Sequence record: PZ445537.1
DNA: 45,054 nt
Reading direction: 5' to 3' (one strand)
Source of the DNA: a phage
Within the stretch, counting starts at the first letter, position 1. Every line of letters begins with the position of its first letter. A model generated the notes under the pieces. The model had not been told where the DNA came from. It saw only the letters and a program-made list of their open reading frames with translations, and did no database searches. Positions 6,096 through 39,347 of the stretch are shown here, piece by piece. The translations under genes and the position numbers were made by a program.

Positions 6096-6527
6096 ATGTT
6101 TCTGAAAAAAGAGAAGTTCACCTGGCAAACAGAATCCCTGACCATCTTCGAGCTGTCGGCGCTGCAGCGTATTGAGTACATCACGTTTATGGCCGCAGAG
6201 GAAAAGGCCGTCAGCGCTGACAGCGACGGCATCAGCGATCAGGAAATGACGGCCAGGCTGATAGGCTCAAATATTCGCTGCGGTGCGCGTTTGATCGCGA
6301 TGTCTTTGTGGCATAACGATCCGGCTGGCACGGATGTGGAAACGCTTTATCAGCAGGTGCTTAGCGGCTGGCCGCCAGAGGCGATCGGTAAAGCAGAAAT
6401 GGAAATAAAGCTGCTCTCCGGCATGCTCGTTCCGGTTGAGGGTGACAACGCTGCCGATCCGGATGCCTCAGCGGAGGCCGAAAGCGCTGAACCCGTTACG
6501 GCGGAAAAGCCCTTGCCAGCGAGCTGA
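6096..6527 (+). CDS. G: tail assembly chaperone gpG
   Basis: 143 aa; MFLK start, LSALQRIE and AMSLWHN blocks match lambda gpG; acidic C-terminus. Confidence 0.9.
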   Translation: MFLKKEKFTWQTESLTIFELSALQRIEYITFMAAEEKAVSADSDGISDQEMTARLIGSNIRCGARLIAMSLWHNDPAGTDVETLYQQVLSGWPPEAIGKAEMEIKLLSGMLVPVEGDNAADPDASAEAESAEPVTAEKPLPAS

Positions 6528-6850
6528 AGTTTGTCCTGAATCTGGCGCGCGAGTTCGGGCGACCCGACTGGCGCGCCATGCTGGCTGGAATGACTTCCAG
6601 TGAGCTGGGCGACTGGCACCAGTTCTATCGGGAGCATTATTTTCAGGACGCGCAGCTCGATGCGCATTTCTCAGAGCTGCTTTATTCCATCTCCACTCTT
6701 TTCTTCCGCGACCCAGAACTTACCCCCGCACATTTCAGCCTGCTTTCTCCTTCCGGTATCGTCATCAGCGATGACGAGCCGGATGATGATGCGCTGATGA
6801 CCGCAGCTGAGGGGATAACAGGAGGTATCCGATATGGCCCAGCAGATTAG
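6491..6850 (+). CDS. T: gpT frame, expressed as gpG-T fusion by -1 programmed frameshift
   Basis: The -1 frame relative to G is open from 6491 (after TGA 6488-6490) to the stop at 6848-6850, overlapping the last 12 codons of G; no good independent start or RBS. Arrangement matches the conserved lambdoid G/GT frameshift. Confidence 0.7.
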   Translation, partial: TRYGGKALASELKFVLNLAREFGRPDWRAMLAGMTSSELGDWHQFYREHYFQDAQLDAHFSELLYSISTLFFRDPELTPAHFSLLSPSGIVISDDEPDDDALMTAAEGITGGIRYGPAD

Positions 6851-11101: not shown

Positions 11102-11821
11102 ATGCGTGAAAAATTGCTGGATGCTATCCGTCAGCACGTCGCTGCTGAATACCCCAAAGAAGCCTGCGGTCTGATTGTTCAGTCAGGCCAGCAGCAAATC
11201 TTTATTCCCTGCCGCAACATTGCAGATAAGCCTGAGGAGACATTCACGCTCTCCCCGGAAGATCAGCTCGCTGCCCGCGCGCGCGGTGAGATCATCATGC
11301 TCATTCATTCCCATCCGGATGTGGTTCGGCTGGTGCCCTCGGAGCTGGACCGGATCCAGTGCGACTGGTCGGGGATTGAGTGGGGGATCATGTCCTGGCC
11401 GGACGGGGATTTTTGTACGATTTCCCCGCGTGAAGACCGGGATTATGCCGGGCGGCAGTGGGTACTGGGTTACGCCGACTGCTGGTCGCTTATCCGTGAA
11501 TTTTATCTGCGCGAATACGGCATTGTTCTCGGGAACTATTCAGTACCTTACGAATGGTGGGAGAGCGGCAAGGAACGGCTCTACGACGACAACTGGGAGC
11601 GTGAGGGATTTGTTGAGATTGCCGCCGGTGCAATGCAGCCCGGGGACATCATCATGATGAGTGTGCAGGCATCGGTGACTAATCATGCCGCGGTATATGT
11701 GGGTGACAACATCATTCTCCATCATCTTTTCGGGCACCTTTCTTCGCGAACGCCTTATGGAAAATATTATCGCGACAGAACGGTCCGGGTGGTCAGGCAT
11801 AAGGACAGAATGCATGGTTAA
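11102..11821 (+). CDS. K: tail assembly protein gpK (JAB/MPN plus NlpC/P60-like)
   Basis: 239 aa; JAMM-type HSHP motif with upstream Cys/Glu, then a C-terminal Cys/His segment; position and content match lambda gpK. Confidence 0.85.
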   Translation: MREKLLDAIRQHVAAEYPKEACGLIVQSGQQQIFIPCRNIADKPEETFTLSPEDQLAARARGEIIMLIHSHPDVVRLVPSELDRIQCDWSGIEWGIMSWPDGDFCTISPREDRDYAGRQWVLGYADCWSLIREFYLREYGIVLGNYSVPYEWWESGKERLYDDNWEREGFVEIAAGAMQPGDIIMMSVQASVTNHAAVYVGDNIILHHLFGHLSSRTPYGKYYRDRTVRVVRHKDRMHG

Positions 11822-12431
11822 GACGCTTATTCTCGAAGGGAAAATGGCTAAAAAATTCGGTAAACGCGTTCAGTTTGACGTTGCCGACCTGCGCGAAATG
11901 CTCAGGGCCATGTGTTCACAGGTTCCCGGATTCAAAAAATACATGTCGGAAGCTCATATGAAGGGGATCCGTTTCGCCTTTTTTAACGGCGACAACAATA
12001 TCGGGCTAGAAGAGTTTGATATGACCCGCGGTGGAAGCGTGTATCGGATCGTGCCCGTTTATGAGGGGGCCAAAAGTTCGGGCGTCCTTCAGATAGTTGT
12101 CGGCGCTGTTGCGCTGGTCGCTGCATTCTTTACCGCTGGTGCGAGCATGGCAGCCTGGGGGGCGGCCATGAGTGCAACAGCCATCAGCGCCACGTCAATT
12201 CTGACCGGGGTTGGGGTGTCAATGATGCTGGGCGGCGTTGTCCAGATGCTCACACCCCAGCCATCCTTCGGCGCGGGTAAATCCTCCAGCACGGACAACA
12301 CGCCTAACTATGCCTTCGGGGCGCCGGTCAATACCGTCGCTATGGGGCATCCTGTCCCCCTGGCCTACGGTCTGATCGAGGCTGGGGGAGCGATAGTCAG
12401 CGCCGGTATGTACTCGAGCGATCAGCAATAG
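11814..12431 (+). CDS. I: tail assembly protein gpI
   Basis: 205 aa from ATG 11814 (overlaps the K stop); the hydrophobic Gly/Ala block AGAKSSGVLQIVVGAVALVAAFFTAGASMAAWGAA...LGGVVQML matches lambda gpI. Confidence 0.85.
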   Translation: MVKTLILEGKMAKKFGKRVQFDVADLREMLRAMCSQVPGFKKYMSEAHMKGIRFAFFNGDNNIGLEEFDMTRGGSVYRIVPVYEGAKSSGVLQIVVGAVALVAAFFTAGASMAAWGAAMSATAISATSILTGVGVSMMLGGVVQMLTPQPSFGAGKSSSTDNTPNYAFGAPVNTVAMGHPVPLAYGLIEAGGAIVSAGMYSSDQQ

Positions 12432-12510
12432 TGAAATGCAACCGAATAAGATGAACGTTACATTGCAATCTCCCTTGGTTATCATGTCCAAAACGATGTC
12501 GATCAAGGAG

Positions 12511-12993
12511 ATGAAAGTGAAAAAATACGGTTTGGTCTTATTTGGTGTGCTCTTTATTTCAGGTTGTGCCCCACAAAATCAGAATAACAATTTACAAAAG
12601 CAATACGCTGATTTAGCAAATTGTGAAGATAACATTACGATGCCAAAACAAATGCCGCATAGTAAAAAGGAGTTTGCGGACTTTTTATCTAAGGCTGCGC
12701 TTAATGCCTCGGCAGATCAGTTTGTTATTCAGAAGCGTATAGAGATTCTTCAATTAGTTGGATGGGATAATTCGGTAGCTGATGCAATAACAACATGTAG
12801 CGCCACCAGAAAGAGCAAGCTTAAAGAAATTGGGGCGAATGTGTTTGAAACCATGAAAGCCAATACTAAAGACACAGAGGAACGTCGTGCTCTTGTTGAG
12901 GCTTATAGTTCGTGGGAAGCTTATGTAACCAGTCAAACGCCACTCGCAAAACAGGACTTTGACTCAAAAGTTAGTTATTACAAAAACATGTAA
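12511..12993 (+). CDS. lipoprotein moron (function unknown)
   Basis: Signal peptide with lipobox (MKVKKYGLVLFGVLFISGC); RBS AAGGAG at 12504-12509 (GTG 12517 is an alternative start); the gene is visibly AT-rich compared with flanking tail genes; inserted between I and J where lambda has none; own terminator follows. Confidence 0.7.
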   Translation: MKVKKYGLVLFGVLFISGCAPQNQNNNLQKQYADLANCEDNITMPKQMPHSKKEFADFLSKAALNASADQFVIQKRIEILQLVGWDNSVADAITTCSATRKSKLKEIGANVFETMKANTKDTEERRALVEAYSSWEAYVTSQTPLAKQDFDSKVSYYKNM

Positions 12994-13023
12994 TAAGACG
13001 CCATCATTAATACTAACAAATAA

Positions 13024-13045
13024 CCCAGCTCAGGCTGGGTTTTTT
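13024..13045 (+). terminator. intrinsic terminator after lipoprotein moron
   Basis: Perfect hairpin CCCAGC-TCAG-GCTGGG (13024-13039) followed by TTTTTT (13040-13045), directly before the J start. Confidence 0.65.
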
Positions 13046-13057: not shown

Positions 13058-16000
13058 ATGCAACTTCTCCATGGTGAAACCATCATACAGGGTGCAAAAG
13101 GGGGCGGTGGAAGCGCGCATACTCCGGTTGAGCAACCTGACGATCTGCTGTCGGTCGCAAAATTAAAAATGCTCATTGCCGTTTCTGAGGGGGAAATACA
13201 GGGCGACCTGACCGCTCAGAATATTTTTCTCAACGATACGCCGCTGGCAAACGACAGCGGGGATTACAACTTCAGCGGCGTGAAATGGGAGTTCCGGAAG
13301 GGCACACAGGACCAGACCTATATTGCCGGGATGCCCCAGGTCGATAACGAGCTGGCGGTTGGCACAACTGTCACCACCACCGCGCCATGGACACGCCAGT
13401 TTACCAATCTTTCCCTGGATGCCATCCGCATCAAGCTCAGCCTTCCGGTCCAGTATCTCTATAAAGATAACGGCGATATGGTGGGCACGGTCACCGAGTA
13501 TGCGATCGATTTATCAACGGATGGCGGCGCCTGGAAAACGGTTGTAAACGGCAAGTTTGACGGAAAGACCACGACGGAATATCAGCGTGACCACCGTATC
13601 GATCTGCCAAAATCCACGTCCGGCTGGTCTGTCAGGGTCAGGCGTATTACGGCTGATGCCAGCGGATCAAATTCGAAACTGGTTAACGCCTTCAAGGTGT
13701 TTTCGTATGCAGAAGTCATCGACAGCAAGCTTCGTTATCCTTTAACCGCGCTCCTGTATGTCGAAGTGGACAGCAGCCAGTTCAACGGCAGCGCGCCGAA
13801 AGTGACCTGTAAGATAAAAGGCAAGCTGATTAAGGTTCCGGATAATTACGATCCGACAACCCGAACCTATTCTGGCTCATGGTCCGGCGGGTTCAAAATG
13901 GCCTGGTCCAATAACCCCGCCTGGATATTTTACGATCTGGTTCTGGATGAAATTTACGGCATGGGCACGCGCGTGGATGCGTCCATGGTGGATAAGTGGG
14001 CGCTGTATTCAATCGCCCAGTACTGTGACGAAATGGTTTCCGACGGGGCCGGTGGCACCGAACCGCGTTTCACCTGCAACGTTTTCATTCAGAGCCAGGA
14101 GGACGCCTGGCAGGTACTTAACGATCTCGCCGCGGTATTCCGTGGAATAACGTTCTGGGGCAACGATCAGATTTATGTCCAGGCAGACGTCCCGCAGGAC
14201 GATGTTGACTGGGTTTATAACGTCTCAAACGTTATCGATGGGCTGTTTACTTATGCGGGCGGCTCATACAAGAATCGCTACAGCTCCTGCCTGGTGTCCT
14301 GGTCCGATCCGCAGAACCATTACAGCGATACCGTTGAGGGGGTTTACGATTCGGCGCTTGTAGAACGTTACGACGTCCGGCAGACGTCCCTGACCGCAAT
14401 CGGCTGCACCTCGCAAAGTGAAGCGCACCGACGCGGTCGCTGGGTATTGCTCTCCAATGCCAAAGACGGGACCGTATCGTTTGGCGTGGGGCTGGACGGT
14501 TATATCCCTTTGCCCGCTGAAATTATCGGTGTCGCCGATCCTTTCCGCTCTGGTAAGGAGAACGGGGGCCGCATAAGCGCGGTCAACGGCCGCCAGATTA
14601 CCCTCGATCGAGAAGTAGACTACGCGGCGAAAGACCGGCTGGTGGTTAACCTTCCCGACGGAAAAGCCCAGACGCGGACAATCAGCGCGGTGAGCGCCGA
14701 TAAAAAAACGGTGACGGTGGCTACGGCATTCAGTCAGGTTCCTGTGGCGGGCGCTGTCTGGGCGATAGACAGTGATAACCTCGCAATACAGTACTTCAGG
14801 GTCACCTCAATCGCGGCTAACGACGACAGCACAGGCGGTTTCACTATTACGGCCGTTCAGCACGATCCAAACAAATATCGTTACATCGATGACGGCGTTC
14901 GGGTCGAGTCTCCCCCGATCACCGTCACGCCGATAAGCGTCCTGTCTGCTCCGGAGAATATCGTGGTGACTGAGAGCGATCATGTGTCTCAGGGGCTGAC
15001 TGTAGCAAGCCTGGACGTGTCATGGGATAAGGTAGAGGGCGCAATTCGGTATGTTGCCCAGTGGCGTAAGGACAACGGGGACTGGATAAACGTTCCGGTT
15101 ACCAGCGCGCAGGGTTTCTCGGTTCAGGGCATTTATTCGGGCAGCTATGACGTGCGCGTACGGGCGCTGAATGCGCAGGATACGTCGTCACCATGGGGAT
15201 ACGGTGAAACAACTTATCTCTCCGGTAAAACGGGAAAACCGGGTACTCCGCTCAACTTCCTGGCGACCGAAGATGTGGTCTGGCATATCGACCTGACCTG
15301 GAAATTTCCGGATGGCTCAGGCGACACGGCCTATACAGAGATTCAGCGCGCCACAACTGCCGACTACGCCAATCCTGAACTGCTGGTCCTGGTGCCGTAC
15401 CCGGCTGCAGATTATCAGCATGGCCCCATGCCTGCCGGCGTTCGCCAGTGGTACCGCGCGCGCCTGATTGACCGTATCGGTAACGCCGGGGACTGGACCG
15501 ACTGGATCATGGGCACGTCCTCGATAGATGTCAGCGAAATAACCAATGACATTCTGGAGGATATGAAAGAGTCGGAAACGTTTAAAGACCTGATCGAGAA
15601 TGCAGTGGACAGCAATGAAAAAATTGCTGGCATGGCTAACGATATCAAACAGGCCAACGACGAACTGGAGCAGCAGGCGAAGGATATCGCCAAAAATGCC
15701 CAGGACGTCGGGAAGGTTCAGACCAGCGTTAATGAGCTTTCGAGCACGGTCGGGAATGTTTCGTCTTCACTCAGTCAGCTTGAGCAGACCGTTGCGACGG
15801 CTGATACCGCCCTGGGCCAGCGAATCGACAACATCAGCGTTTCTATGGACGGCATGACGGGCGGGGTGAAGAACTCAGCCATTGCCATTATCCAGAACGG
15901 GCTAGCGCAGGTGGCTGCGCGTAAAACCCTTTCTGCATCGGTCGCCGGCAACAGCGCGAATCTGGACCGTATTGATGAGGTGATTGTCAACGACAGGGAG

Positions 16001-16618
16001 GCAACGGCGCGCTCGCTGCTGAGCCTGCAGACGGACGTCAACGGCAACAAGGCATCCATCAACAGCCTGAACCAGACGTTCTCCGATTACCAGCAGGCTA
16101 TGGCCACGCAAGTAAACAGCATCACGGCGACGGTGAACGGGCATACCTCTGCCATCACAACTAACGCTCAGGCGATAGCTAACGTAAACGGCGACCTCAG
16201 CGCGATGTACAACATCAAGGTTGGTGTCTCCAGCAACGGGCAGTATTACGCCGCGGGAATGGGTATCGGAGTGGAGAATACGCCATCCGGCATGCAGTCG
16301 CAGGTTATCTTCCTGGCTGACCGCTTCGCCGTCACCACGGCAGCCGGAAACAGCGTGGCTCTGCCGTTCGTGATCCAGAACGGGCAGACATTCATTCGGG
16401 CCAGCTTCATTCAGGACGGCACCATTGAGAACGCCAAAATCGGCAACTATATCCAGTCGAATAACTATGTGGCTGGTTCTTCCGGCTGGAAGCTTGATAA
16501 GGGAGGGACGTTCGAAATTAACGGCGTGGCCGGGGGCGGGAGGATGCTGATATCCAGCACTCTCATTCGTATCTACGACAGCAACAACGTGCTGCGCGTC
16601 AGAATGGGGTTATGGTAA
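13058..16618 (+). CDS. J: tip attachment / host specificity protein gpJ
   Basis: 1186 aa from ATG 13058 (track ORF from 12959 would span the moron terminator). N-terminal two-thirds collinear with lambda gpJ (GGTEPRFTCN, WALYSIAQYCD, ITAVQHDP); C-terminal ~400 aa divergent and coiled-coil-rich. Confidence 0.9.
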   Translation: MQLLHGETIIQGAKGGGGSAHTPVEQPDDLLSVAKLKMLIAVSEGEIQGDLTAQNIFLNDTPLANDSGDYNFSGVKWEFRKGTQDQTYIAGMPQVDNELAVGTTVTTTAPWTRQFTNLSLDAIRIKLSLPVQYLYKDNGDMVGTVTEYAIDLSTDGGAWKTVVNGKFDGKTTTEYQRDHRIDLPKSTSGWSVRVRRITADASGSNSKLVNAFKVFSYAEVIDSKLRYPLTALLYVEVDSSQFNGSAPKVTCKIKGKLIKVPDNYDPTTRTYSGSWSGGFKMAWSNNPAWIFYDLVLDEIYGMGTRVDASMVDKWALYSIAQYCDEMVSDGAGGTEPRFTCNVFIQSQEDAWQVLNDLAAVFRGITFWGNDQIYVQADVPQDDVDWVYNVSNVIDGLFTYAGGSYKNRYSSCLVSWSDPQNHYSDTVEGVYDSALVERYDVRQTSLTAIGCTSQSEAHRRGRWVLLSNAKDGTVSFGVGLDGYIPLPAEIIGVADPFRSGKENGGRISAVNGRQITLDREVDYAAKDRLVVNLPDGKAQTRTISAVSADKKTVTVATAFSQVPVAGAVWAIDSDNLAIQYFRVTSIAANDDSTGGFTITAVQHDPNKYRYIDDGVRVESPPITVTPISVLSAPENIVVTESDHVSQGLTVASLDVSWDKVEGAIRYVAQWRKDNGDWINVPVTSAQGFSVQGIYSGSYDVRVRALNAQDTSSPWGYGETTYLSGKTGKPGTPLNFLATEDVVWHIDLTWKFPDGSGDTAYTEIQRATTADYANPELLVLVPYPAADYQHGPMPAGVRQWYRARLIDRIGNAGDWTDWIMGTSSIDVSEITNDILEDMKESETFKDLIENAVDSNEKIAGMANDIKQANDELEQQAKDIAKNAQDVGKVQTSVNELSSTVGNVSSSLSQLEQTVATADTALGQRIDNISVSMDGMTGGVKNSAIAIIQNGLAQVAARKTLSASVAGNSANLDRIDEVIVNDREATARSLLSLQTDVNGNKASINSLNQTFSDYQQAMATQVNSITATVNGHTSAITTNAQAIANVNGDLSAMYNIKVGVSSNGQYYAAGMGIGVENTPSGMQSQVIFLADRFAVTTAAGNSVALPFVIQNGQTFIRASFIQDGTIENAKIGNYIQSNNYVAGSSGWKLDKGGTFEINGVAGGGRMLISSTLIRIYDSNNVLRVRMGLW

Positions 16619-16914
16619 TGCCACAGGGTTTGCAATGTTGGGATAGTGCAGGGCGGGTTGCAGTGGATTTAAGCGATTACGCGGTCCGTTACATGGGCAG
16701 CGCAACTGTTTCGCTTGCTTCAGGAGAGTCGTCAAAAAATGTCGCCTTTTCTGGCGCAACGCAGGACGGGACGTTTGTCACCATCGTTTCAACTGGCGTG
16801 ACTGTAAACGAGTATTTTTGCCGCGCTTATAACGGCGGCTTTACTCTCTACTATCTCCCCACGGGTGGAAGTGCCGCAATCACTCTCAATGTTGAGGTTT
16901 ATAACTTTCAATGA
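16612..16914 (+). CDS. hypothetical protein, translationally coupled to J
   Basis: 100-aa ORF whose ATG overlaps the J stop (ATGGTAA); no recognisable motif. Confidence 0.45.
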   Translation: MVMPQGLQCWDSAGRVAVDLSDYAVRYMGSATVSLASGESSKNVAFSGATQDGTFVTIVSTGVTVNEYFCRAYNGGFTLYYLPTGGSAAITLNVEVYNFQ

Positions 16915-17552
16915 GCGGATTCGAAGTTTACAACAGCGACGGAAAACTGCTGGTGGATTCACAAAACAGATCGACCATGTTTTATGATCAACGCGCGCTG
17001 GGTGCCGTAACCAATAAAGGCTATTACCGTGTTGATAGCCCGTTTGGTGATGGCAGTACACTTGGCACCACTCCTCAGGCATTCTGGAATGACGGGCGCT
17101 TAAGGTGGCTGCAGCTGGGTACGAACAAATACGGTTTTCCGGGTGCTGATATGCTGGAAGATAATGCGGGTAGCATGATCCGAACTGCGCGAAATATTGG
17201 CATCCAGAGCGGCTATCTCGATGTGTTTGATAGTGCCGGAAACCTTATCTGGAGTGCGGCCTCAGCGTCTAAGATGCCGAGAGTATTCGGGTTCTTTGAT
17301 GTGCCAGCGAACTATGACCTGCAGAACAATACGTTCTCAGTAAGTCTCAGTTTCAACCCCTGGATTCTGGTAAATAACTGCCCAGGTAATCTCAGCGATG
17401 ATGGCACGGTTGTAGGGTATTCAGGTGTAGTGCTCAAATGGACTGGCTCGCAGCTGCAGGGCAGATATATATCTAAAAATCAGCGCAACTGGAGCCAGAC
17501 ATTTCAGGGTAGGGGATTACGAATCCCCATTGCTCAGTTTGTCGGTATTTGA
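16911..17552 (+). CDS. hypothetical protein, coupled to upstream ORF
   Basis: 213-aa ORF starting at an ATGA overlap (16911-16914); no recognisable motif; possible tail-tip accessory by position. Confidence 0.5.
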   Translation: MSGFEVYNSDGKLLVDSQNRSTMFYDQRALGAVTNKGYYRVDSPFGDGSTLGTTPQAFWNDGRLRWLQLGTNKYGFPGADMLEDNAGSMIRTARNIGIQSGYLDVFDSAGNLIWSAASASKMPRVFGFFDVPANYDLQNNTFSVSLSFNPWILVNNCPGNLSDDGTVVGYSGVVLKWTGSQLQGRYISKNQRNWSQTFQGRGLRIPIAQFVGI

Positions 17553-17879
17553 CTCAGGGGGAACGCGAGGATACTGCGTGGCAATCATGTTTTGTCTCAC
17601 GCCTTTCGCTGCGTTGAAGCGATAAACAACATCCAGTTTATCGGTTTTTTTATAGCAAATATTACTGAGCCGCTTATTTACATGGCGGCTAAATATTCCA
17701 TTGCTGCTGTCAGAAATAACCGTCATTTCTCGCGTGGCGCAGTCAATATTAACGTGAATATCACCGCCCAATGATAAACGGGCAGCGTCAACCGGATAAT
17801 CCATTCTGAATGCGTTGTCTGTGTGTTTACTGGAACAGCCAGCCAGCAGCAAAAATATTGCAGCAAATAATCGTTTCAT
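17517..17879 (-). CDS. lipoprotein (reverse-strand moron)
   Basis: 120 aa; signal peptide with lipobox (MKRLFAAIFLLLAGCSS); RBS AGGAA 8 nt upstream; opposite strand to the tail operon, 3' end converges on the previous gene by 36 nt. Confidence 0.6.
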   Translation of the reverse strand: MKRLFAAIFLLLAGCSSKHTDNAFRMDYPVDAARLSLGGDIHVNIDCATREMTVISDSSNGIFSRHVNKRLSNICYKKTDKLDVVYRFNAAKGVRQNMIATQYPRVPPESNTDKLSNGDS

Positions 17880-18005: not shown

Positions 18006-19292
18006 ATGCTTTATAACACTGGCACTATCGCTATTAACGGAAATACCGCAACCGGCACTGGCACAAACTGGACGGCACCGGCCAGCCAGGTTCGCGCTGG
18101 ACAGACGATTATCGTCATGTCTAACCCGGTCCAGATGTTCCAGATTTCATCCGTGAACAGCGCCACATCGATGACGGTTACGCCAGCTGCTTCCCCGGCG
18201 CTGAGCGGCCAGAAGTACGGCATTCTGGTATCAGACAATATCTCGGTCGATGGTCTGGCGCAGGCGATGTCTCAGCTCATCAAAGAGTATGACGAGAATA
18301 TCGGTGCGTGGGAGACCTTCGCTACCACATCAGCAAATCAGAGCATTACCGTGACCATCAACGGCACCGCCGTAACCATCCCTGGCATCGGGAAACTGGC
18401 GCAGAAAGGGAGCAACGGTGCGCTTGCAATCGCTGACGGCGGGACCGGGGCAACGAAGGCAGAAGACGCTCGCACAAACCTCGGTTTAGGAAGTAGTGCG
18501 TTGAAGAATTTGCAAAGCACAACCGAGGACAAAACGTCTGGGGCTGTTTTGCAGGTTGGAGCCTTCGGATTAGGTGCGGAGGCTCCAACGATCCCTGCTA
18601 ATGATGCGAATCAGATTGTTGGCTATAACGGTTTTGTTTCCGGTGCAGGGGCTCCTGGAACGAACTGGGTAAACGTGTACGGTCCCATGCTCGTTATGAG
18701 GAGAATCAGCGCGGTTGCTCAGGTCCAGGTAAACTCTGTTGGTGGATTGGCATCACGCTACGGTCTGGTTACGGATATGACCGTTAACAATGGCGGTGCA
18801 TGGTGTGTTCACTGGCATGACAGAAACACAACGGTGGACTCAAGCGGGTTCATAAAACGGGCTTCGCCTATCGTTAAGTTGTTTTTTGATGGAAGCTACG
18901 AAACAAATGATGAATCTGAGGGGTGCACAGTACGCCGTATCGAAACAGGCCAATATCTTATAGAAGGATGTCATGGCCTGAATGCTGAGGCTATTTGGGG
19001 CGGGGTTGATGGCGGTTTTGAGATACCCTCAGACCGTAATAAACAGCCGCTGATATGGCTGGATTATGAGGTAAATGCTGACGGATCGGTGCTGGTAAAA
19101 ACCTATCACCGCACACACCCGCAAGCGCCAGCGTTCGCCAGGAACGAGCTGCAGGGCATCAACGATGGCGACCCGGTCGACATTCCCCGCGATCAGTTTG
19201 TGTCCGTGCGCGTCGAAATGCCTGGCGATTCTCTGTACAACCAGAAACTCAGAGCCGTAGAGCTGATCCTTGCTGCTGATGAAGGTGAATAA
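18006..19292 (+). CDS. side tail fibre protein (constant N-terminus plus currently expressed distal cassette A)
   Basis: 428 aa; tail-fibre motif GGTGATKAEDARTNLGLG at aa ~142-159; the constant/variable junction coincides with crossover site S1; C-terminal ~130 aa nearly identical to inverted cassette D. Confidence 0.85.
   Translation: MLYNTGTIAINGNTATGTGTNWTAPASQVRAGQTIIVMSNPVQMFQISSVNSATSMTVTPAASPALSGQKYGILVSDNISVDGLAQAMSQLIKEYDENIGAWETFATTSANQSITVTINGTAVTIPGIGKLAQKGSNGALAIADGGTGATKAEDARTNLGLGSSALKNLQSTTEDKTSGAVLQVGAFGLGAEAPTIPANDANQIVGYNGFVSGAGAPGTNWVNVYGPMLVMRRISAVAQVQVNSVGGLASRYGLVTDMTVNNGGAWCVHWHDRNTTVDSSGFIKRASPIVKLFFDGSYETNDESEGCTVRRIETGQYLIEGCHGLNAEAIWGGVDGGFEIPSDRNKQPLIWLDYEVNADGSVLVKTYHRTHPQAPAFARNELQGINDGDPVDIPRDQFVSVRVEMPGDSLYNQKLRAVELILAADEGE
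18469..18494 (+). other. invertase crossover site S1 (hix/gix-like)
   Basis: CTCGCACAAACC-TC-GGTTTAGGAAGT: 12+2+12 architecture with AAACC/GGTTT flanking the core as in gix as recalled; lies inside the fibre gene and encodes ARTNLGLGS. Confidence 0.75.
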
Positions 19293-19309
19293 AGGTCGGT
19301 TTGGGAGAC
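19284..19309 (+). other. invertase crossover site S4
   Basis: GGTGAATAAAGG-TC-GGTTTGGGAGAC; shares the right half-site with S1; spans the stop of cassette A and the start of cassette B. Confidence 0.65.
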
Positions 19310-20131
19310 AGCGCCACAGCCAACTTCGGAAGCCTCGAGATCGGAGCCAAAAAACCTTCTTCAGCAAGCTTTGTTGATTTCCATTTTCTTGGCACCAACG
19401 ACTATGACGCGCGCATCCTGTGTGGTGGTAATTCTAATGGTGCCATGGGGAAAGGGGACTTCACTTTTTACGCGGGGAAATACGTTTTTATCGGCGATAG
19501 CTTTGAGTTTCGCAACCCCATTACCTGTCAAAATAGCATCAGCGCATCTGCAAAAATAGCGACCACTGCTGATATGGAATGCAAAACTAAAATCGCTGTT
19601 TTGGCACCGGCTGACAATCAAAATGCCCATGTATGGTTCTATGGCACAGGTGGGGCATCCAGGGGGGTTATTTATTCCGGGCAAACAGGAATTATTCAGA
19701 TCCGTCCCGACAATAATGATAACGGCGGCTCCAACGGATACTCTTTTGCATTTGGGGCCGATGGTAAGTTTACCTGCGTCACGATGAACCAGACCTCAGA
19801 TGAGCGAGTAAAATTCGATAAAGAGCCCGTCAGTAACGCTCTGGAGAAGATTTGTTCCCTGACGGGTTATACGTTCGGCATTCAGCTCACAGAATCTGAG
19901 TCGGTACGTAGCGCAGGCATCATCGCACAGGAACTGGAGCAGGTTCTGCCGATCGCTGTGAGTTCTGGCGGCACCGGAACAACACCTGCAGGAGAGGAAA
20001 TTAACGATCTCAAAACCGTGGACTACAGCGCAATGAGCGCCCTCTACGTTGAGGCAATCAAGGAATTAACCAACCGGTTGAAAAGTGTTGAGAGCGAACT
20101 TACTGCAATACGTGACCGCTCAAACGCTTAG
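19301..20131 (+). CDS. silent tail fibre distal cassette B with C-terminal intramolecular chaperone (S74-like) domain
   Basis: 276 aa counted from TTG inside S4; no RBS or ATG; frame opens right at the crossover site; C-terminus has the self-cleaving chaperone signature (SDERVKFD...GIIAQELEQVLPIAV...VDYSAMSALYVEAIKEL). Confidence 0.7.
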   Translation: MGDSATANFGSLEIGAKKPSSASFVDFHFLGTNDYDARILCGGNSNGAMGKGDFTFYAGKYVFIGDSFEFRNPITCQNSISASAKIATTADMECKTKIAVLAPADNQNAHVWFYGTGGASRGVIYSGQTGIIQIRPDNNDNGGSNGYSFAFGADGKFTCVTMNQTSDERVKFDKEPVSNALEKICSLTGYTFGIQLTESESVRSAGIIAQELEQVLPIAVSSGGTGTTPAGEEINDLKTVDYSAMSALYVEAIKELTNRLKSVESELTAIRDRSNA

Positions 20132-20781
20132 TTTCTTGTCTTATCTTCTAAAGCCCCGACGCGGATTGCCAGGGCTTTTATCGCGGCCAGCGCATCGAGC
20201 AACATGGGGGTCTGGTCGAGATGCAGCAGGCCGCCAATATCTTTGACGTATTCAGGGTCGATAGTTTCAATCTGCTGAGATATCACCCCGCGCCGTGGGG
20301 TCTGCGTTTCATCATCCTTAAAAGTGAAGTGTTTGAACTCCATCCGTGAAATGTTGCCCAGCGCCTCTTCTGGATCGAGGTCGTCACCAATATTTTTCAT
20401 AATTCTGTCTGAAACTGCAGACGTCATTATCTCCTTCCATGGGCTCCATGTATCAGTGTTGTAACCCCTGAAAAAAAACCTTCCCGCATCAGTTTTGTTG
20501 GCATACGGCAAGCAGAACTGCGTCAAGGCTACATCAGGAATACGAACATAATTTTGAACATACCCATACCAGCTGGTGATAGGTCCTGAAGTTGATTTCG
20601 CCATATCTAACAGCAAACGATATGTACCAGGTTCAGTCAGGGCATTGAAATTTGTCCCGTCAGGAGCAACTGCCATATCTGTTTTAAAGGCTCTGGCATC
20701 ACCAGTTGGCAACCCGAATGCCCCCACCTGCATGACGTTCCCGGCTGCGCCGCCTGCATCCAGCGTGGCGCTACTTCCCAA
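20128..20781 (-). CDS. silent tail fibre distal cassette C (inverted) with chaperone-like C-terminus
   Basis: 217 aa on the minus strand beginning inside site S2 (GLGSSATLDAGGAAGNVMQVGAFGL); C-terminus resembles an S74-type chaperone domain (SDRIMKNI...GVISQQIE); stop codon overlaps cassette B's stop tail to tail. Confidence 0.7.
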   Translation of the reverse strand: MGSSATLDAGGAAGNVMQVGAFGLPTGDARAFKTDMAVAPDGTNFNALTEPGTYRLLLDMAKSTSGPITSWYGYVQNYVRIPDVALTQFCLPYANKTDAGRFFFRGYNTDTWSPWKEIMTSAVSDRIMKNIGDDLDPEEALGNISRMEFKHFTFKDDETQTPRRGVISQQIETIDPEYVKDIGGLLHLDQTPMLLDALAAIKALAIRVGALEDKTRN

Positions 20782-20798
20782 ACCGACCTTTATTCACC
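20773..20798 (-). other. invertase crossover site S2 (inverted relative to S1)
   Basis: Minus-strand sequence GGTGAATAAAGG-TC-GGTTTGGGAAGT; 23 of 26 nt identical to S4. Confidence 0.7.
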
Positions 20799-21527
20799 TT
20801 CATCCGTAGTCATTGCCAGTTCTGTGGCCCTGAGTTTTTGGTTGTACAAAGAATCGGCAGGCATCTCGACACGGACGGACAAAAACTGGTCATGGGGGAT
20901 ATCGACCGGATCGCCATTGTTGATACCCAGCAGTTCGTTCCTGGCGAACGCTGGCGCGTCAGGATACGTGCGGTGAAAGGTTTTCACCAGCACCGAGCCG
21001 TCAGCGTTAACCTCATAATCCAGCCAGATCAGCGGCTGCTTGTTACGGTCTGTAGGAATGTCAAAACCGCCATCGATTCCGCCCCAGGCTGCGTCAGAGT
21101 TCAACCCTTCACACCCTTCGATAAGATACTGCCCTACGTCCAGACGGATGACCTTTATGCCTTCGGATTCATCATTGGTTTGGTATGCACCATCCGAAAA
21201 TACTTTCACCACAGGCGATGCTGCTTTCAGTGTGCCATCGCTGGCCCTCGTGGTATTGCCCGTGGTGTAAGCCTCCTGATATGACCAGGACGTGCCACCG
21301 TAATACGAAAACCACGTCCGCCTTAGAATGTAGGCCTGATGAATACGGGTTGGTCGGCTGCCCCGATTGACGACTATAGACGTAATACCGGTATTTGCAG
21401 TTAACCCGAGCTGGGTCTGTCCGTCATTTTGATGGGAGGAGAAACAGGTCGGTGTAAATGCGTCCATAGCGTCCAACAGTGGGCCGTCTCCGTTGATAGT
21501 TCCAAGCCCAAATGCGCCCACTTGCAT
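20790..21527 (-). CDS. silent tail fibre distal cassette D (inverted)
   Basis: 245 aa from ATG 21527; the same frame stays open upstream to site S3 (…LGSSATKDVGTTAGNIMQVGAFGL); C-terminal ~130 aa (NDESEG…DEGE) nearly identical to cassette A, forming a long imperfect inverted repeat. Confidence 0.75.
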   Translation of the reverse strand: MQVGAFGLGTINGDGPLLDAMDAFTPTCFSSHQNDGQTQLGLTANTGITSIVVNRGSRPTRIHQAYILRRTWFSYYGGTSWSYQEAYTTGNTTRASDGTLKAASPVVKVFSDGAYQTNDESEGIKVIRLDVGQYLIEGCEGLNSDAAWGGIDGGFDIPTDRNKQPLIWLDYEVNADGSVLVKTFHRTYPDAPAFARNELLGINNGDPVDIPHDQFLSVRVEMPADSLYNQKLRATELAMTTDEGE

Positions 21528-21566
21528 GATGTTCCCGGCAGTCGTTCCGACGTCCTTTGTCGCGCT

Positions 21567-21592
21567 ACTTCCTAAACCGACGTTTTATAGAT
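21567..21592 (-). other. invertase crossover site S3 (inverted relative to S1)
   Basis: Minus-strand sequence ATCTATAAAACG-TC-GGTTTAGGAAGT; right half plus next 6 nt (GGTTTAGGAAGTAG.GCG) identical to S1; preceded by an in-frame TAA. Confidence 0.75.
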
Positions 21593-21657
21593 TGCCCTGG
21601 GGCAGCCTGGCCGATAACGTCACCTGATTTTTTCTTACAAAAAGGTGACTAAAAAAC

Positions 21658-22212
21658 ATGCAATATGGGTATGCAAGGGTATCAACTTTTGACCAAAATC
21701 TTGAATTACAGTTAGAGGCGCTAAATCGGTCAGAATGTGACCAGATATTTGAGGATAAAATATCCGGAGCGAAGTCAAAACGTCCTGGCCTGGATAAGAT
21801 GATGAAGTTATTGCGGCCAGGTGACACCGTCATCGTCTGGAAGCTAGACCGGCTCGGTCGATCACTCATACACCTCGTCGATTTACTGCGCTATTTCCGG
21901 GCTAATAATATTGAATTTGTCTCAATCACTGAGGGAATAAGGATCAGCACGTCAATCGGCAGATTCGCATACACAATGTTGAGTGCTGCGGCTGAGATGG
22001 AAAGAGAAAATATTATTGAAAGAACAAGGGCAGGTTTAGCCGTGGCAAGGGCAAAAGGGAGAATAGGTGGGAGGCGTCCAAAGTTAACACCAGAACAATG
22101 GGCGCAGGCTGGGAGATTAATATCAAACGGCGTGGATAGAAAACAGGTGGCAATAATTTATGATGTGGCTGTATGCACGCTTTATAAAAAATTTCCGGTG
22201 GGGCAGGCTTAA
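21658..22212 (+). CDS. serine recombinase, DNA invertase (Hin/Gin/Cin/Pin family)
   Basis: 184 aa; N-terminal catalytic motif YARVSTFDQ; RPGL…GDT-VVWKLDRLGRS block matches Hin as recalled; C-terminal HTH; sits just outside the invertible segment as gin/cin/pin do. Confidence 0.9.
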   Translation: MQYGYARVSTFDQNLELQLEALNRSECDQIFEDKISGAKSKRPGLDKMMKLLRPGDTVIVWKLDRLGRSLIHLVDLLRYFRANNIEFVSITEGIRISTSIGRFAYTMLSAAAEMERENIIERTRAGLAVARAKGRIGGRRPKLTPEQWAQAGRLISNGVDRKQVAIIYDVAVCTLYKKFPVGQA

Positions 22213-37623: not shown

Positions 37624-37644
37624 TTGTATGGAGCGCTGAGCATA

Positions 37645-38337
37645 ATGAATTTACAAGAACTGGAATATACGCGGATTGAACTGCGCCGCGCGCTGGTGGA
37701 TTTATCAGGATCGACAAAAGGACAGCTGCAGGCGTTCAGTGAGCATCCACCAGCAGATAAGAATAAATACCCTCGGCACCATCCTGAAATCGTCATGGAG
37801 GGTGGGGAAGGTTGTGGATCAAAGGTGGTAAAAACTCTGGCCACTCCGCTTTATGTTCTTGAGACAAGGAGCCGTCGCCGACCTTTACCGCCTATTAAGG
37901 ATACGGAGTTCGCTTGTTCAGCATGGCGTCGATCGGTCAATGGTTTGGGGGAGCATTTGCAGGCATGGGTGCGGTACTGCTATGGGCATGACCTTGCTTT
38001 CCGGTACCAGAGGTTAATGTGCCAGCACGTATGGGAAGAGTTTCAGCGTCAGCATAGCGGCAAAAAAATCCAGGACCGTGTCACTAAAAAACTGGTAGGG
38101 CTTGTCTGGCTGGCGGCGCAAGAAGTTGCTGCCTCGCGTAATAACGATACCTATCAGGAGTATGCTGGTGCAGCTCTGGCGCGCATGGTCAGCGTTGAGC
38201 GTTCCACCTGGCTCAGAGTGTATTCAGGCCACTGGGCGGCTTTCAAAGCGTCGTTTGCTGAAATGGACAGCCAGGCACTAAGCGAAATTTTGTCACGGTA
38301 CGAAGAGTACCAAGAACTGAAAGTGGCGGAAATGTGA
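37645..38337 (+). CDS. putative late-gene antiterminator (Q-like)
   Basis: 230 aa from ATG 37645 (track start 37624 is TTG); called by position only: last early gene, followed by a short promoter-terminator unit and the late region. Confidence 0.4.
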   Translation: MNLQELEYTRIELRRALVDLSGSTKGQLQAFSEHPPADKNKYPRHHPEIVMEGGEGCGSKVVKTLATPLYVLETRSRRRPLPPIKDTEFACSAWRRSVNGLGEHLQAWVRYCYGHDLAFRYQRLMCQHVWEEFQRQHSGKKIQDRVTKKLVGLVWLAAQEVAASRNNDTYQEYAGAALARMVSVERSTWLRVYSGHWAAFKASFAEMDSQALSEILSRYEEYQELKVAEM

Positions 38338-38432
38338 GGTAACTTTCACTAACTCCCTCAAATGGGCTTGCAAAATGCAACAAAATGAGTCATATTTGAA
38401 CCTAATTTGATATGTTGCTAAAAGTATATCAG

Positions 38433-38455
38433 CCCGCCAGTGAGCGGGTTTTTTC
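38433..38455 (+). terminator. intrinsic terminator (tR'-like) ~100 nt after the Q-like gene
   Basis: Hairpin CCCGC-CAGTGA-GCGGG (38433-38448) followed by TTTTTTC. Confidence 0.6.
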
Positions 38456-38553
38456 TTGGGAGTAATCTGAAAAAACATCCCATCCTTCAGTGTTTTTAAC
38501 ATTTGTTAATGGTATTCTTTTTCAACCCTTAAACTCCTGTTTTGGCCTACATT

Positions 38554-39099
38554 ATGCTTTCTCTGGAAGAAGTAGCTCAACAAACCTATAACACCCTCCA
38601 GGCATACATGGATCATCGTGAGATAGATCTAGCAGTCGGTCCGCTTTCTTTTAATGATACTAGTTCCCTCATAAGAGCTTATGGTGAACTTAACTGGGAA
38701 TACTATGTAACCTCAGTAGGTAATGACCCGGATTGTTTCAGTTTATGTATTAAACTAATAACTTCTAAAGAGCATAAACTTGTTGATGATTACCCAGCGG
38801 GTGTGGCATTGTGCACCTACCATCACGGTAGCAGTAGGTTTGATATACATGCAGTTGAGAACTTCGTGAAGGATAGTGAAGATCATCCATTGCGTCGTAA
38901 GATGATTTTGTATACATTATACGCCGCCGTTATCTTCATGAAGCAAGTTGATGGTACTGAGGTTCGTATCATTGAACCAGTGGAAGAAAAGATTGATTAC
39001 TATCGGACCTTTGGGTTTGAAATGTCAGATAGTTGCTCTTATGTTATGACTTGTAGTCTTGATAGGCTGATGAGATACATGGCTGAAAGAGATGCTTAA
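38554..39099 (+). CDS. AT-rich cargo gene, hypothetical (possible GNAT-like fold)
   Basis: 181 aa from ATG 38554 (track start 38542 is TTG); the gene is visibly AT-rich compared with the rest of the genome; weak GNAT-like C-terminal pattern (HPLRRKMIL…IDYYRTFGFE); between Q-like gene and lysis cassette. Confidence 0.55.
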   Translation: MLSLEEVAQQTYNTLQAYMDHREIDLAVGPLSFNDTSSLIRAYGELNWEYYVTSVGNDPDCFSLCIKLITSKEHKLVDDYPAGVALCTYHHGSSRFDIHAVENFVKDSEDHPLRRKMILYTLYAAVIFMKQVDGTEVRIIEPVEEKIDYYRTFGFEMSDSCSYVMTCSLDRLMRYMAERDA

Positions 39100-39347
39100 T
39101 CATCATCCCATAAGTTAGCGGGTACATTGTAATTGTGTTATAGTGTACTCAAGTTTAAGCACTAGATACCGAAGAACTAGATGGCAGCTACCATCTATGT
39201 CAATCGCTCAAAGCTATGGCAATGAGTGGCTCAAGTATCGAGATGCTTCTTGCATGTAGTAGTAACATGAACATGTGAACTTCAGCACGCATGTTGTTAC
39301 ACGAAATGCATGTTCACTCTGGAACAATGCTTCCGAAGAGGTGATGT

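What the first reader, a model, noticed from the sequence alone, without database searches (positions are those of the whole stretch)
12436..13045. AT-rich lipoprotein moron inserted between tail assembly gene I and J
A low-GC gene encoding a lipoprotein precursor (lipobox FISGC) with its own RBS and a perfect terminator (13024-13045) is wedged into an otherwise tightly coupled tail operon, a position that is empty in lambda. Phage-encoded lipoproteins acquired as morons often mediate superinfection exclusion or receptor masking (Cor and Llp are examples); the function here is unknown.
Basis: partly seen in the sequence, partly recalled or inferred. Interest (0 to 1): 0.6.

Follow-up and report, generated by a model that had tools for sequence, protein, structure and literature searches.

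The report
phi80 MorF lipoprotein moron, function unknown
This is the counterpart of phage phi80's morF, a small self-transcribed lipoprotein gene inserted between two tail genes; it was already annotated as such in GenBank, and nobody has yet shown what it does.

Summary
A 0.39-GC block of about 610 bp (12432-13045) lies between tail genes I and J. It carries a promoter-like site, a Shine-Dalgarno sequence, a lipoprotein ORF and an intrinsic terminator. The true start is probably GTG 12517, not ATG 12436. The window is Escherichia phage Eeyore. The gene is the 94%-identical orthologue of phi80 morF, which GenBank FN582354 already annotates as "MorF lipoprotein precursor; moron gene product". 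Phages mEp213, mEp043 and LLS have ~95%-identical I and J but lack the block, so it is a true insertion. The family is tiny: 27 representatives among 1.84 billion proteins, with no Pfam family and no informative fold match. It is under purifying selection (dN/dS 0.05-0.16). Its phage-borne members sit at five different junctions, all inside the tape-measure-to-J tail-tip block of lambdoid prophages. The promoter block is conserved between two of these sites. MorF is not a Cor/Llp, Bor or LprI relative. It persists while the receptor-binding module and its cognate lipoprotein are swapped, which argues against receptor-specific masking. Function is untested. My best guess is an outer-membrane-anchored periplasmic exclusion factor acting after adsorption. 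Already known; modest interest.

The parts
11814..12431 (+). Tail assembly gene I (left flank of the insertion). Its stop codon TAG ends at 12431.
   Evidence: PF06805 Lambda_tail_I and phrog_32. About 95% identical to gene I of mEp213, which lacks the insert.
12432..13045 (+). The whole morF moron cassette: extra DNA relative to mEp213, mEp043 and LLS. It replaces a 34-nt spacer and hairpin and ends in the shared T-run.
   Evidence: Empty-site alignment. GC 0.393 against 0.55-0.56 in the flanks.
12457..12485 (+). Sigma-70 promoter-like site, GTTACA-17 nt-TATCAT. phi80 record FN582354 annotates the same site as -35/-10, with a TSS at about 12492.
   Evidence: Scan match 9/12, not above chance on its own. 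The same architecture occurs at the homologous place in H|M-inserted homologues. Identity from -35 to the start codon is 67-70%, against 37-45% at third codon positions. Annotation.
12505..12510 (+). Shine-Dalgarno AAGGAG, 6 nt upstream of GTG 12517.
   Evidence: Sequence. An equivalent AGGGGA lies 5 nt before the ATG in clade B.
12517..12993 (+). morF coding sequence: 158 aa plus stop. An alternative start is ATG 12511; the longest ORF starts at ATG 12436.
   Evidence: phrog_8179, E = 3.6e-73. 94% identical to phi80 MorF. dN/dS 0.05-0.16.
12517..12564 (+). Lipoprotein signal peptide (MKKYGLVLFGVLFISG). Cleavage is predicted before Cys17.
   Evidence: Lipobox I-S-G-C. The Cys is invariant in 27/27 aligned family members. 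phi80 annotates it as an SPase II signal.
12565..12990 (+). Mature MorF, about 142 aa. It has an N-terminal lipidated Cys with Ala at +2 (no Asp, so outer-membrane sorting is predicted), a low-complexity tether, then an all-alpha bundle. Two further invariant Cys (C36, C94) are present.
   Evidence: AF2 model with pLDDT 80 and pTM 0.71; helices 22-34, 50-81, 85-115, 120-139 and 142-156. Alignments.
13022..13045 (+). Intrinsic terminator, AACCCAGC-TCAG-GCTGGGTT followed by a T-run, 12 nt before the J start codon.
   Evidence: Conserved in clade A with a loop change, TCAG to TCAT.
13058..16618 (+). Central tail fibre / tip attachment gene J (right flank).
   Evidence: PF24801, PF13550 and PF09327; phrog_31. 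89% identical to phi80 J.
37624..38337 (+). Q antiterminator. It is the likely reason the moron's terminator does not block late expression of J (inference).
   Evidence: PF06323 Phage_antiter_Q, E = 4e-40. Read-through is inferred from the lambda paradigm.

Best explanation
The feature is the Eeyore allele of phage phi80's morF. It is a self-contained moron cassette of about 610 bp (promoter, SD, lipoprotein gene, intrinsic terminator) inserted into the I-J spacer of a phi80-type tail operon.

Shown here: it is an insertion, it is compositionally foreign, it encodes a conserved protein under purifying selection, and that protein has a canonical lipoprotein signal.

Inferred for the protein:
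- The precursor is exported by Sec.
- Lgt, LspA and Lnt lipidate and process it at Cys17.
- Lol sorts it to the inner leaflet of the outer membrane, because there is no Asp at +2.
- A helical bundle of about 125 residues, probably disulphide-stabilised (C36-C94), hangs in the periplasm on a short flexible tether.

Inferred for expression:
- In a lysogen it is transcribed from its own promoter and stopped by its own terminator.
- In lytic growth, Q-antiterminated late transcription reads through it.

Most likely role, which is inferred and not shown (my probability about 0.35-0.4): an envelope-level phage-exclusion factor tied to the lambdoid tail-tip module. It would act after receptor binding, for example on tail-tip opening or on transit of the tape-measure protein and DNA across the periplasm, or on a conserved host envelope partner. 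It would not mask one particular receptor.

The stated confidence covers the identity, the moron nature and the lipoprotein nature, not the specific function.
For: Identity:
- 100% to phage Eeyore and 95% nt / 94% aa to phi80 morF. FN582354 annotates that gene with -35, -10, TSS, SPase II signal and terminator.

Insertion:
- mEp213, mEp043 and LLS have ~95%-identical I and J but lack 12432-~13039.
- GC 0.39 against 0.55; GC3 0.35 against 0.65.

Real gene:
- dN/dS 0.05-0.16.
- Lipobox Cys and two further Cys invariant across three clades and also present in the 18 remote homologues read.

Own transcription unit:
- GTTACA-17-TATYAT is conserved between I|J- and H|M-inserted copies, although synonymous sites are saturated.
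- Terminator at 13022-13045.
- A Q antiterminator is present.
- These match the published definition of a moron: GC differs from neighbours, own promoter and terminator (PMC3594210).

Accessory, not essential:
- morF-less relatives were deposited as complete phage genomes.
- The phi80 records carry a premature stop.

Tail-tip linkage:
- All 50 loci from the collection scans, and every further phage-borne locus inspected, lie inside the TMP-to-J block, at five junctions: I|J, H|M, K|I, M|L and tail protein|DUF6950-J.

Defence neighbourhood:
- At H|M, MorF heads a hypervariable cargo island. In at least 10 loci that island carries PD-Lambda-1, E = 6e-201.

Not receptor-specific:
- Between Eeyore and phi80, the genes after J are unrelated and cor is replaced by an unrelated lipoprotein, while morF is retained.
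- LLS has that lipoprotein but no morF.
- morF-positive phages have J proteins of 1159-1320 aa.
Against: - No experiment or transcript data were available. The promoter match alone is no better than chance (3 found against 2.0 expected).
- No literature on MorF was found.
- Tail-operon junctions are general moron hotspots, so the tail-tip association could reflect permissive sites and module-wise recombination rather than function.
- The adjacency to defence genes is guilt by association.
- The most remote homologues (E about 1e-7 to 1e-9) lie in apparently non-phage contexts next to PEMT, BamE and MFS genes. This is compatible with a general envelope function.
- The nonsense allele in the phi80 records shows that the full-length protein is dispensable to the phage.
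Confidence: 0.75

Rival explanations
1. Receptor masking of the Cor/Llp type. MorF would bind the periplasmic face of the phage's own outer-membrane receptor (FhuA for phi80) and allosterically close it. This would exclude phages that use the same receptor and protect progeny from inactivation on debris.
For: - It is an outer-membrane lipoprotein predicted to face the periplasm and has an invariant Cys pair, as Llp does.
- It is phage-borne and lies in the tail region.
- Llp's mechanism is established (PMC9586334).
Against: - No homology. The phrog_1119 (Cor) hit covers only the signal peptide, residues 1-29, E = 0.007.
- Mature MorF is about 142 aa and all-alpha, whereas Llp is 61 aa.
- phi80 already has Cor, and Eeyore has a different lipoprotein next to its post-J genes. 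That module is swapped between the two phages while MorF stays 94% identical.
- MorF-positive phages carry diverse J C-termini and downstream genes.
- MorF is never adjacent to the receptor-binding locus in the loci inspected.
Confidence: 0.1
2. A lysogenic-conversion fitness or virulence factor unrelated to phages (Bor/Iss- or Lom-like). It would be an envelope lipoprotein that improves host survival, for example serum or antimicrobial resistance, envelope stress tolerance or adhesion.
For: - It has moron architecture with predicted prophage expression.
- It is predicted to be an outer-membrane lipoprotein, like Bor.
- Remote homologues occur in apparently chromosomal contexts next to envelope genes such as BamE and PEMT.
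Against: - There is no hit to Lambda_Bor or any other Pfam family.
- It is rare in E. coli: 3 of 5426 complete genomes, two of them laboratory strains.
- The hosts named in the hit lists are Citrobacter, Enterobacter, Kluyvera, Leclercia and similar genera, with one Salmonella cluster. Nothing in them points to a virulence role.
- Every phage-borne copy lies inside the tail-tip block, a restriction a general fitness gene would not need.
Confidence: 0.2
3. An immunity or inhibitor protein against a periplasm-acting toxin or enzyme. Candidates are T6SS amidase or lipase effectors, bacteriocins, lysozyme-like enzymes, or the peptidoglycan hydrolase of incoming tails.
For: - It is a small all-alpha periplasmic lipoprotein with a probable disulphide, a common format for such immunity proteins (my own knowledge).
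- Four members gave weak, recurrent sub-threshold hits to the lysozyme inhibitor family LprI, E = 0.15-0.22.
Against: - Profile-profile comparison with the YecT/LprI family gave probability 0.15%, aligning only the signal peptide.
- None of the inspected loci showed a toxin-like gene consistently next to MorF; the genes beside it vary from locus to locus.
- There are no PADLOC hits and no fold match to known immunity proteins among the listed matches.
Confidence: 0.1
4. A decaying or non-functional passenger: an ORF carried along with the tail module that has no current function.
For: - All three phi80 records carry a TCA-to-TAA nonsense codon that removes the conserved last 9 residues.
- Viable relatives lack the gene.
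Against: - dN/dS is 0.05-0.16 across the family.
- Cys residues, motifs and the C-terminus are invariant down to about 40% identity.
- The promoter block is conserved.
- The window allele is full length.
Confidence: 0.03

Closest known systems
phi80 MorF (GenBank FN582354 CBH95072, 'MorF lipoprotein precursor; moron gene product'; JX871397 PHI80_20 morF; PHROG phrog_8179)
   Same: Orthologue: 94% aa and 95% nt identity. It has the same I|J position, promoter-like site, SD, signal peptide and terminator.
   Different: The window allele is full length (158 aa). The phi80 records have a nonsense codon 9 codons early and one extra Gln. No function is recorded for either.
Cor (phi80, N15, T1) and Llp (T5) superinfection-exclusion lipoproteins
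   Same: They are phage-encoded outer-membrane lipoproteins that face the periplasm and have an intramolecular disulphide. They are expressed to change the cell envelope (PMC9586334).
   Different: There is no sequence relationship; only the signal peptide matches. Mature MorF is 2-2.5 times larger and all-helical. It is not encoded next to the receptor-binding locus and does not co-vary with it.
HK97 gp15 moron
   Same: It is a moron inside the tail operon of a lambdoid phage, with its own promoter and terminator. It is expressed from the prophage and blocks DNA entry depending on the incoming phage's tail region rather than on adsorption (PMC3594210). This is the closest functional analogy for what I propose.
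   Different: gp15 is a small inner-membrane protein located between the tail chaperone gene and the tape-measure gene. MorF is a predicted outer-membrane lipoprotein. The two sequences were not compared here.
Ltp of Streptococcus thermophilus phage TP-J34
   Same: It is a prophage-encoded lipoprotein that mediates superinfection exclusion (abstract of PMC3952083, shown). From my own knowledge, it blocks DNA injection and is genetically linked to the tape-measure protein of the excluded phage.
   Different: It comes from a Gram-positive host, is surface-exposed on the cytoplasmic membrane and belongs to a different protein family. No PDB chain matched the MorF model significantly.
Lambda Bor / Iss lipoprotein
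   Same: It is a prophage moron encoding an outer-membrane lipoprotein expressed in lysogens (reference listed in PMC3594210).
   Different: There is no Pfam Lambda_Bor hit. The genomic location differs, since bor lies near the lysis genes. Bor's role is serum resistance.

Membership tests
Moron (definition as given in PMC3594210) | Extra DNA that is absent from closely related phage genomes. | tested here: met
   mEp213, mEp043 and LLS have I and J ~95% identical, but about 573-610 bp are missing between them.
Moron (definition as given in PMC3594210) | [quoted passage not shown] | tested here: met
   GC 0.393 against 0.56 and 0.553. GC3 0.35 against 0.64 and 0.67. About 3 sd below the window mean.
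Moron (definition as given in PMC3594210) | Own promoter. | tested here: inconclusive
   GTTACA-17-TATCAT scores 9/12, no better than chance alone. However, it is conserved in position and sequence with copies inserted at H|M. No transcript data were available.
Moron (definition as given in PMC3594210) | Own terminator. | tested here: met
   An 8-bp perfect stem plus T6 at 13022-13045; -19.8 kcal/mol, z = -3.8.
Moron (definition as given in PMC3594210) | Expression from the repressed prophage. | not testable with these tools
   This needs RNA-seq or 5' RACE on a lysogen.
phi80 MorF family (phrog_8179) | Full-length sequence similarity to the family profile. | tested here: met
   phrog_8179, E = 3.6e-73, residues 1-158 against profile 1-159. 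94% identical to phi80 MorF.
Bacterial lipoproteins (SPase II substrates) | N-terminal signal peptide with a positively charged n-region, a hydrophobic h-region and a lipobox [LVI][ASTVI][GAS]C. | tested here: met
   MKK-YGLVLFGVLF-ISG-C. The Cys is invariant in 27/27 aligned members and present in all 18 remote homologues read. 23 of 27 members gave weak, mostly sub-threshold matches to Pfam LPAM_1 (best E = 0.0004).
Bacterial lipoproteins (SPase II substrates) | Actual lipidation, LspA cleavage and outer-membrane localisation. | not testable with these tools
   Outer-membrane sorting is inferred from the absence of Asp at +2 (residues seen there are A, S, T or V).
Cor / Llp exclusion lipoproteins | Sequence similarity of the mature protein. 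| tested here: not met
   The phrog_1119 hit has E = 0.007 and is confined to signal-peptide residues 1-29.
Cor / Llp exclusion lipoproteins | Encoded next to the receptor-binding protein locus and co-varying with it. | tested here: not met
   MorF lies upstream of J. The post-J genes and the adjacent lipoprotein are swapped between phi80 and Eeyore, while MorF is retained.
Lambda Bor / Iss | Match to Pfam Lambda_Bor. | tested here: not met
   No Pfam hit at E <= 0.1 for the window protein, and none among the 27 members scanned at E <= 10.
LprI / DUF1311 lysozyme inhibitors (PF07007) | Profile-level similarity to the LprI domain. | tested here: not met
   Hits were sub-threshold only, E = 0.15-0.22 and 12-13 bits against a cutoff of 22. 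hhalign against the YecT family gave probability 0.15%.
Known anti-phage defence systems (PADLOC-DB 2.0) | Match to any defence-protein model. | tested here: not met
   0 families at E <= 0.1.

The most novel reading that the evidence does not exclude
MorF may define a previously uncharacterised family of outer-membrane-anchored periplasmic exclusion lipoproteins that is genetically tied to the lambdoid tail-tip module. Phage-borne members occur at five different junctions between the tape-measure gene and J. The family would block a post-adsorption step of siphovirus entry, such as tail-tip opening or passage of the tape-measure protein and DNA through the periplasm, independently of which receptor is used. 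That would be a Gram-negative, outer-membrane counterpart of HK97 gp15 or Ltp.
Probability: 0.25. Interest if true: 0.6.

Novelty: already known. Interest (0 to 1): 0.3.

Why it matters
As a feature it is ordinary. It is a textbook moron in a phi80-type phage, and public phi80 records already annotate it as such. Two things remain open.

- The function of MorF is unknown, even though it sits in one of the classical coliphages.
- The family-wide picture assembled here appears to be undescribed: a tiny lipoprotein family whose phage-borne members are confined to the tail-tip gene block at five different junctions, with a conserved private promoter, sometimes heading a defence-gene island.

If MorF proves to block entry after adsorption, it would add an outer-membrane/periplasmic layer to prophage-encoded exclusion. 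It could also help explain phenotypes of phi80 lysogens, which have been reported as contaminants of laboratory strains (PMC2885432). A natural control exists, because the phi80 records carry a truncated allele and the Eeyore allele is full length.

Tried and rejected
Sequence-family searches:
- Pfam, NCBIfam and PADLOC on MorF gave nothing beyond signal-peptide or low-score noise. DUF6491, DUF4223 and LPAM_1 cover residues 1-40 only; phasin scored 18 bits against a cutoff of 99.7.
- The LprI lead was followed up by fetching E. coli YecT, confirming it is PF07007 and building a profile. hhalign rejected it at probability 0.15%.
- A sequence-profile search of the PDB gave 0 hits at E <= 1.

Structure searches on the AF2 model:
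- Foldseek against BFVD and the PDB gave no hit better than E = 0.17.
- afdb50 was not available.

Other searches:
- Rfam on the whole window gave 0 hits.
- Plasmid collection: no MorF homologue.
- Literature: no paper on morF/MorF of phi80. Rotman et al. 2012 (PMC3510586) is not held. The Tai paper concerns a different phi80 locus, upstream of the packaging genes. No paper mentions Eeyore or Flotzy.

Ideas rejected:
- An obligate partner gene in clade B. The genes after MorF at H|M are many unrelated cargo ORFs without an evident N-terminal signal peptide in the examples read.
- ATG 12436 as the start codon.
- Cor identity for the second lipoprotein at 17517-17879.
Full report
**1. The observation**

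ORF 12436..12993 (+) exists. It encodes a protein whose conserved N-terminus is MKKYGLVLFGVLFISG|C, a canonical lipoprotein signal with lipobox I-S-G-C. The Cys codon is at 12565-12567. AAGGAG lies at 12505-12510, 6 nt before GTG 12517.

A perfect 8-bp, 4-nt-loop hairpin at 13022-13041 runs into T6 and ends 12 nt before the J start codon at 13058. RNA folding gives -19.8 kcal/mol, z = -3.8.

The block is compositionally distinct:
- GC 0.393 for 12432-13039, against 0.56 for I and 0.553 for J.
- GC3 0.35, against 0.64 and 0.67.
- The window as a whole has mean 0.527 and sd 0.046 for 608-bp stretches. Only one other region, about 38.2-39.6 kb, is as low.

The neighbouring tail genes are tightly packed or overlapping. 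In lambda the I-J gap is 60 nt and holds no gene.

The one correction concerns the start codon. ATG 12436 is only the longest-ORF start. The conserved start is GTG 12517; FN582354 uses ATG 12511. Three reasons support this:
- The 27-codon extension is missing from all diverged homologues.
- The extension would bury the signal peptide.
- The extension overlaps the promoter-like site.

**2. Identity**

The window is Escherichia phage Eeyore (PP925821, 100% identity; isolated from river water). The block is 99.4% identical in phage Flotzy and 95% identical in phi80.

In phi80 the gene is named morF. GenBank FN582354 annotates it as [quoted passage not shown]. That record lists -35 and -10 signals, a transcription start, an SPase II signal peptide, the acylated Cys and a rho-independent terminator. 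JX871397 calls it morF, hypothetical protein. I found no paper describing a function, and Rotman et al. 2012 is not held in the library.

**3. It is a true insertion**

Phages mEp213, mEp043 and LLS have I and J about 95% identical to the window but lack the block. The junction alignment shows the I stop codon followed by a 41-nt spacer. That spacer has its own small hairpin and T7, and then J begins. In the window, 34 nt of that spacer are replaced by about 608 nt, and the right junction falls in the shared T-run. These morF-less phages were deposited as complete phage genomes, so morF is an accessory gene.

**4. It is a real, constrained gene**

The word-index homologue search found 43 clusters, all in genera related to E. 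coli and none with a functional name. A profile search added relatives at 41-46% identity in Serratia and Kluyvera.

An exhaustive HMMER scan of 1.84 billion representatives found only 27 proteins at E <= 1e-3. Every full-length one (about 155-172 aa) matches the profile from end to end, and a few are fragments. The 18 remote members I read share the lipobox, the same Cys pair, an A[YF]S[AS]WE motif and a C-terminal YKN[IM].

dN/dS is 0.05-0.16 for unsaturated pairs.

All three phi80 records carry a TCA-to-TAA nonsense codon that removes the conserved last nine residues. The window allele is full length.

The gene is rare in E. coli: 3 of 5426 complete genomes, two of which are laboratory strains (XL10-Gold and JCL301) carrying the phi80-like 95% allele. 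It is absent from the plasmid collection.

**5. Own transcription signals**

The consensus scan finds GTTACA-17-TATCAT at 12457-12485. At 9/12 matches this is not above chance by itself. Comparative evidence is stronger:
- The same architecture appears at the homologous position upstream of homologues inserted at a different junction, H|M.
- The -35, the -10 region, the start region and the SD are conserved, while the spacer varies.
- Identity from -35 to the start codon is 67-70%. Third codon positions show 37-45%, and unrelated flanks forced into alignment show 46-54%.

The cassette therefore travels with its promoter. Terminators, by contrast, depend on context:
- Clade A keeps the 13022 hairpin, with a loop change.
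- Some clade-B copies share a hairpin with a convergent gene.
- Clade C has its own terminator.

A Q antiterminator gene is present at 37624-38337. By inference from the lambda paradigm, late transcription should read through into J. All of this matches the published moron definition (PMC3594210). Expression in lysogens could not be tested.

**6. The protein**

There is no Pfam, NCBIfam or PADLOC family. The only family hit is PHROG phrog_8179, of unknown function.

The AF2 model (pLDDT 80, pTM 0.71) shows a disordered N-terminal tether followed by an all-alpha bundle, with helices at 50-81, 85-115, 120-139 and 142-156. Structure searches gave no lead:
- Foldseek against the PDB and against BFVD gave nothing better than E = 0.17.

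A weak recurrent LprI signal (E about 0.2) was tested against a YecT-family profile and rejected, at hhalign probability 0.15%.

From the sequence I infer outer-membrane sorting, because the +2 residue is never Asp. I also infer a periplasmic C36-C94 disulphide, because both Cys are invariant. Neither inference could be tested.

**7. Genomic distribution**

This is the informative part. Across the loci inspected, phage-borne members occupy five different junctions, all inside the tape-measure-to-J tail-tip block:
- **I|J.** Clade A, >= 74% identity, in phi80-type modules with J of 1159-1320 aa and differing downstream genes.
- **H|M.** Clade B, 52-65% identity, in Citrobacter, Salmonella, Enterobacter and related prophages. 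One remote member, P0092, is also here.
- **K|I.** Clade C, in Serratia and Kluyvera.
- **M|L.** Remote member P0089.
- **Tail protein | DUF6950 + J-like gene.** Remote member P0098, in a different type of tail-tip cluster.

Among 50 further loci from IMG/VR and GTDB, 17 are at I|J and 33 at H|M.

At H|M, MorF always lies 80-139 nt after the tape-measure gene. The distance to M ranges from 90 to 4846 nt and is filled by many unrelated cargo genes. In at least 10 loci that cargo includes PD-Lambda-1 (PADLOC E = 6e-201). Other cargo includes antirepressor-like, Arc-like, HEPN-like and Panacea-domain ORFs.

Only the two most remote homologues (E = 4e-9 and 2e-7) lie in apparently non-phage contigs, next to PEMT, BamE and MFS genes.

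**8. Bearing on mechanism**

MorF is not related to them. The Cor PHROG matches only the signal peptide. Mature MorF is about 142 aa and helical, whereas Llp is a 61-residue protein that jams the FhuA plug from the periplasm (PMC9586334).

A natural comparison is more telling. Between phi80 and Eeyore:
- J is 89% identical.
- The two genes after J are unrelated.
- cor is replaced by an unrelated 120-aa lipoprotein on the opposite strand.
- Homologues of that lipoprotein lie right after J in Drexlerviridae. That is the arrangement described as a receptor-binding locus with a cognate exclusion protein (PMC8594841).
- MorF stays 94% identical across this swap.
- LLS has the 120-aa lipoprotein but no morF.

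MorF therefore does not track the receptor module. What it does track, across deep divergence and five junctions, is the tail-tip assembly block.

My best explanation, with about 0.35-0.4 probability for the functional part, is an outer-membrane-anchored periplasmic exclusion factor acting after adsorption on lambdoid entry. This is analogous in logic to HK97 gp15 (PMC3594210) or to Ltp.

The rivals are:
- a Bor-like host-fitness factor;
- a Cor/Llp-like receptor jammer;
- a periplasmic immunity or inhibitor protein;
- a decaying passenger gene.

Caveats apply. Tail-operon junctions are general moron hotspots. Module-wise recombination can by itself keep a gene in one block. The adjacency to defence genes is only association.

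**9. Verdict**

The item is already known: it is the phi80 morF orthologue, annotated as a lipoprotein moron. Its function remains open and is directly testable, with the truncated phi80 allele as a natural control.

Interest is modest. It would rise if the post-adsorption exclusion role tied to the tail tip were demonstrated.

Noticed in passing
window 16612-17879 (ORFs 16612-16914 +, 16911-17552 +, 17517-17879 -): A second lipoprotein ORF (120 aa, MKRLFAAIFLLLAGC; phrog_25729) lies on the minus strand where phi80 has cor. It is unrelated to Cor. The two small genes after J are also unrelated to phi80 gp22 and gp23. Homologues of the lipoprotein are 78-83% identical in Flotzy, LLS, HK639, LMessi and CharmingMan, and 35-41% identical in Drexlerviridae, where the NBD2 copy lies directly after J. 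It looks like a swapped receptor-binding module with its own cognate exclusion lipoprotein. The receptor is unknown.
   Followed up: partly
window 18006-22212: Apparent invertible tail-fibre (host-range) segment. stf (18006-19292 +) and an alternative fibre C-terminus (20790-21527 -) each carry PF25670, and each is followed by an S74-chaperone ORF (19301-20131 +, 20128-20781 -). 457-nt inverted arms lie at 18861-19317 and 20765-21221 (78% complementary). A Hin/Gin-type resolvase-invertase is at 21658-22212.
   Followed up: partly
window about 38200-39630 (ORF 38542-39099 +): The only other stretch as AT-rich as morF (GC about 0.39) lies just downstream of the Q antiterminator gene and upstream of a DNA methylase gene. 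Its 185-aa ORF has no Pfam family and matches phrog_4350, of unknown function. It may be another moron at the late-promoter position.
   Followed up: partly
L002 (phi80 JX871397) 6118-6600; also FN582354 and NC_021190: The phi80 records carry a TCA-to-TAA nonsense codon in morF that removes the family's highly conserved last nine residues (SKVSYYKNM). The phi80 allele may be crippled, which matters for any experiment done with phi80 rather than Eeyore.
   Followed up: yes
L003-L007, L044, L046-L048, L063 (about 8544-10157 in L003, minus strand): In Citrobacter-type prophages, the H|M junction downstream of the MorF homologue is a hypervariable cargo island. In at least 10 loci it carries the validated defence gene PD-Lambda-1 (SNIPE/T5orf172; PADLOC E = 6e-201). 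Elsewhere it carries antirepressor-like, Arc-like, HEPN-like, Panacea/SocA and Hok/Gef genes.
   Followed up: partly
L020 (mEp213) 916-965: The empty I-J spacer of morF-less relatives already contains a small GC hairpin followed by T7 (-16.2 kcal/mol). The moron's right junction falls in this T-run. The insertion therefore replaced a resident terminator-like hairpin with its own.
   Followed up: partly
L079 and L082 (metagenome contigs SRR24146912 and SRR24146910): The most remote MorF-family members (E = 4e-9 and 2e-7) lie next to a PEMT-family gene in both contigs, and near BamE, YmdA and MFS genes in one. No phage genes are visible. This may be a chromosomal branch or ancestor of the family.
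   Followed up: no
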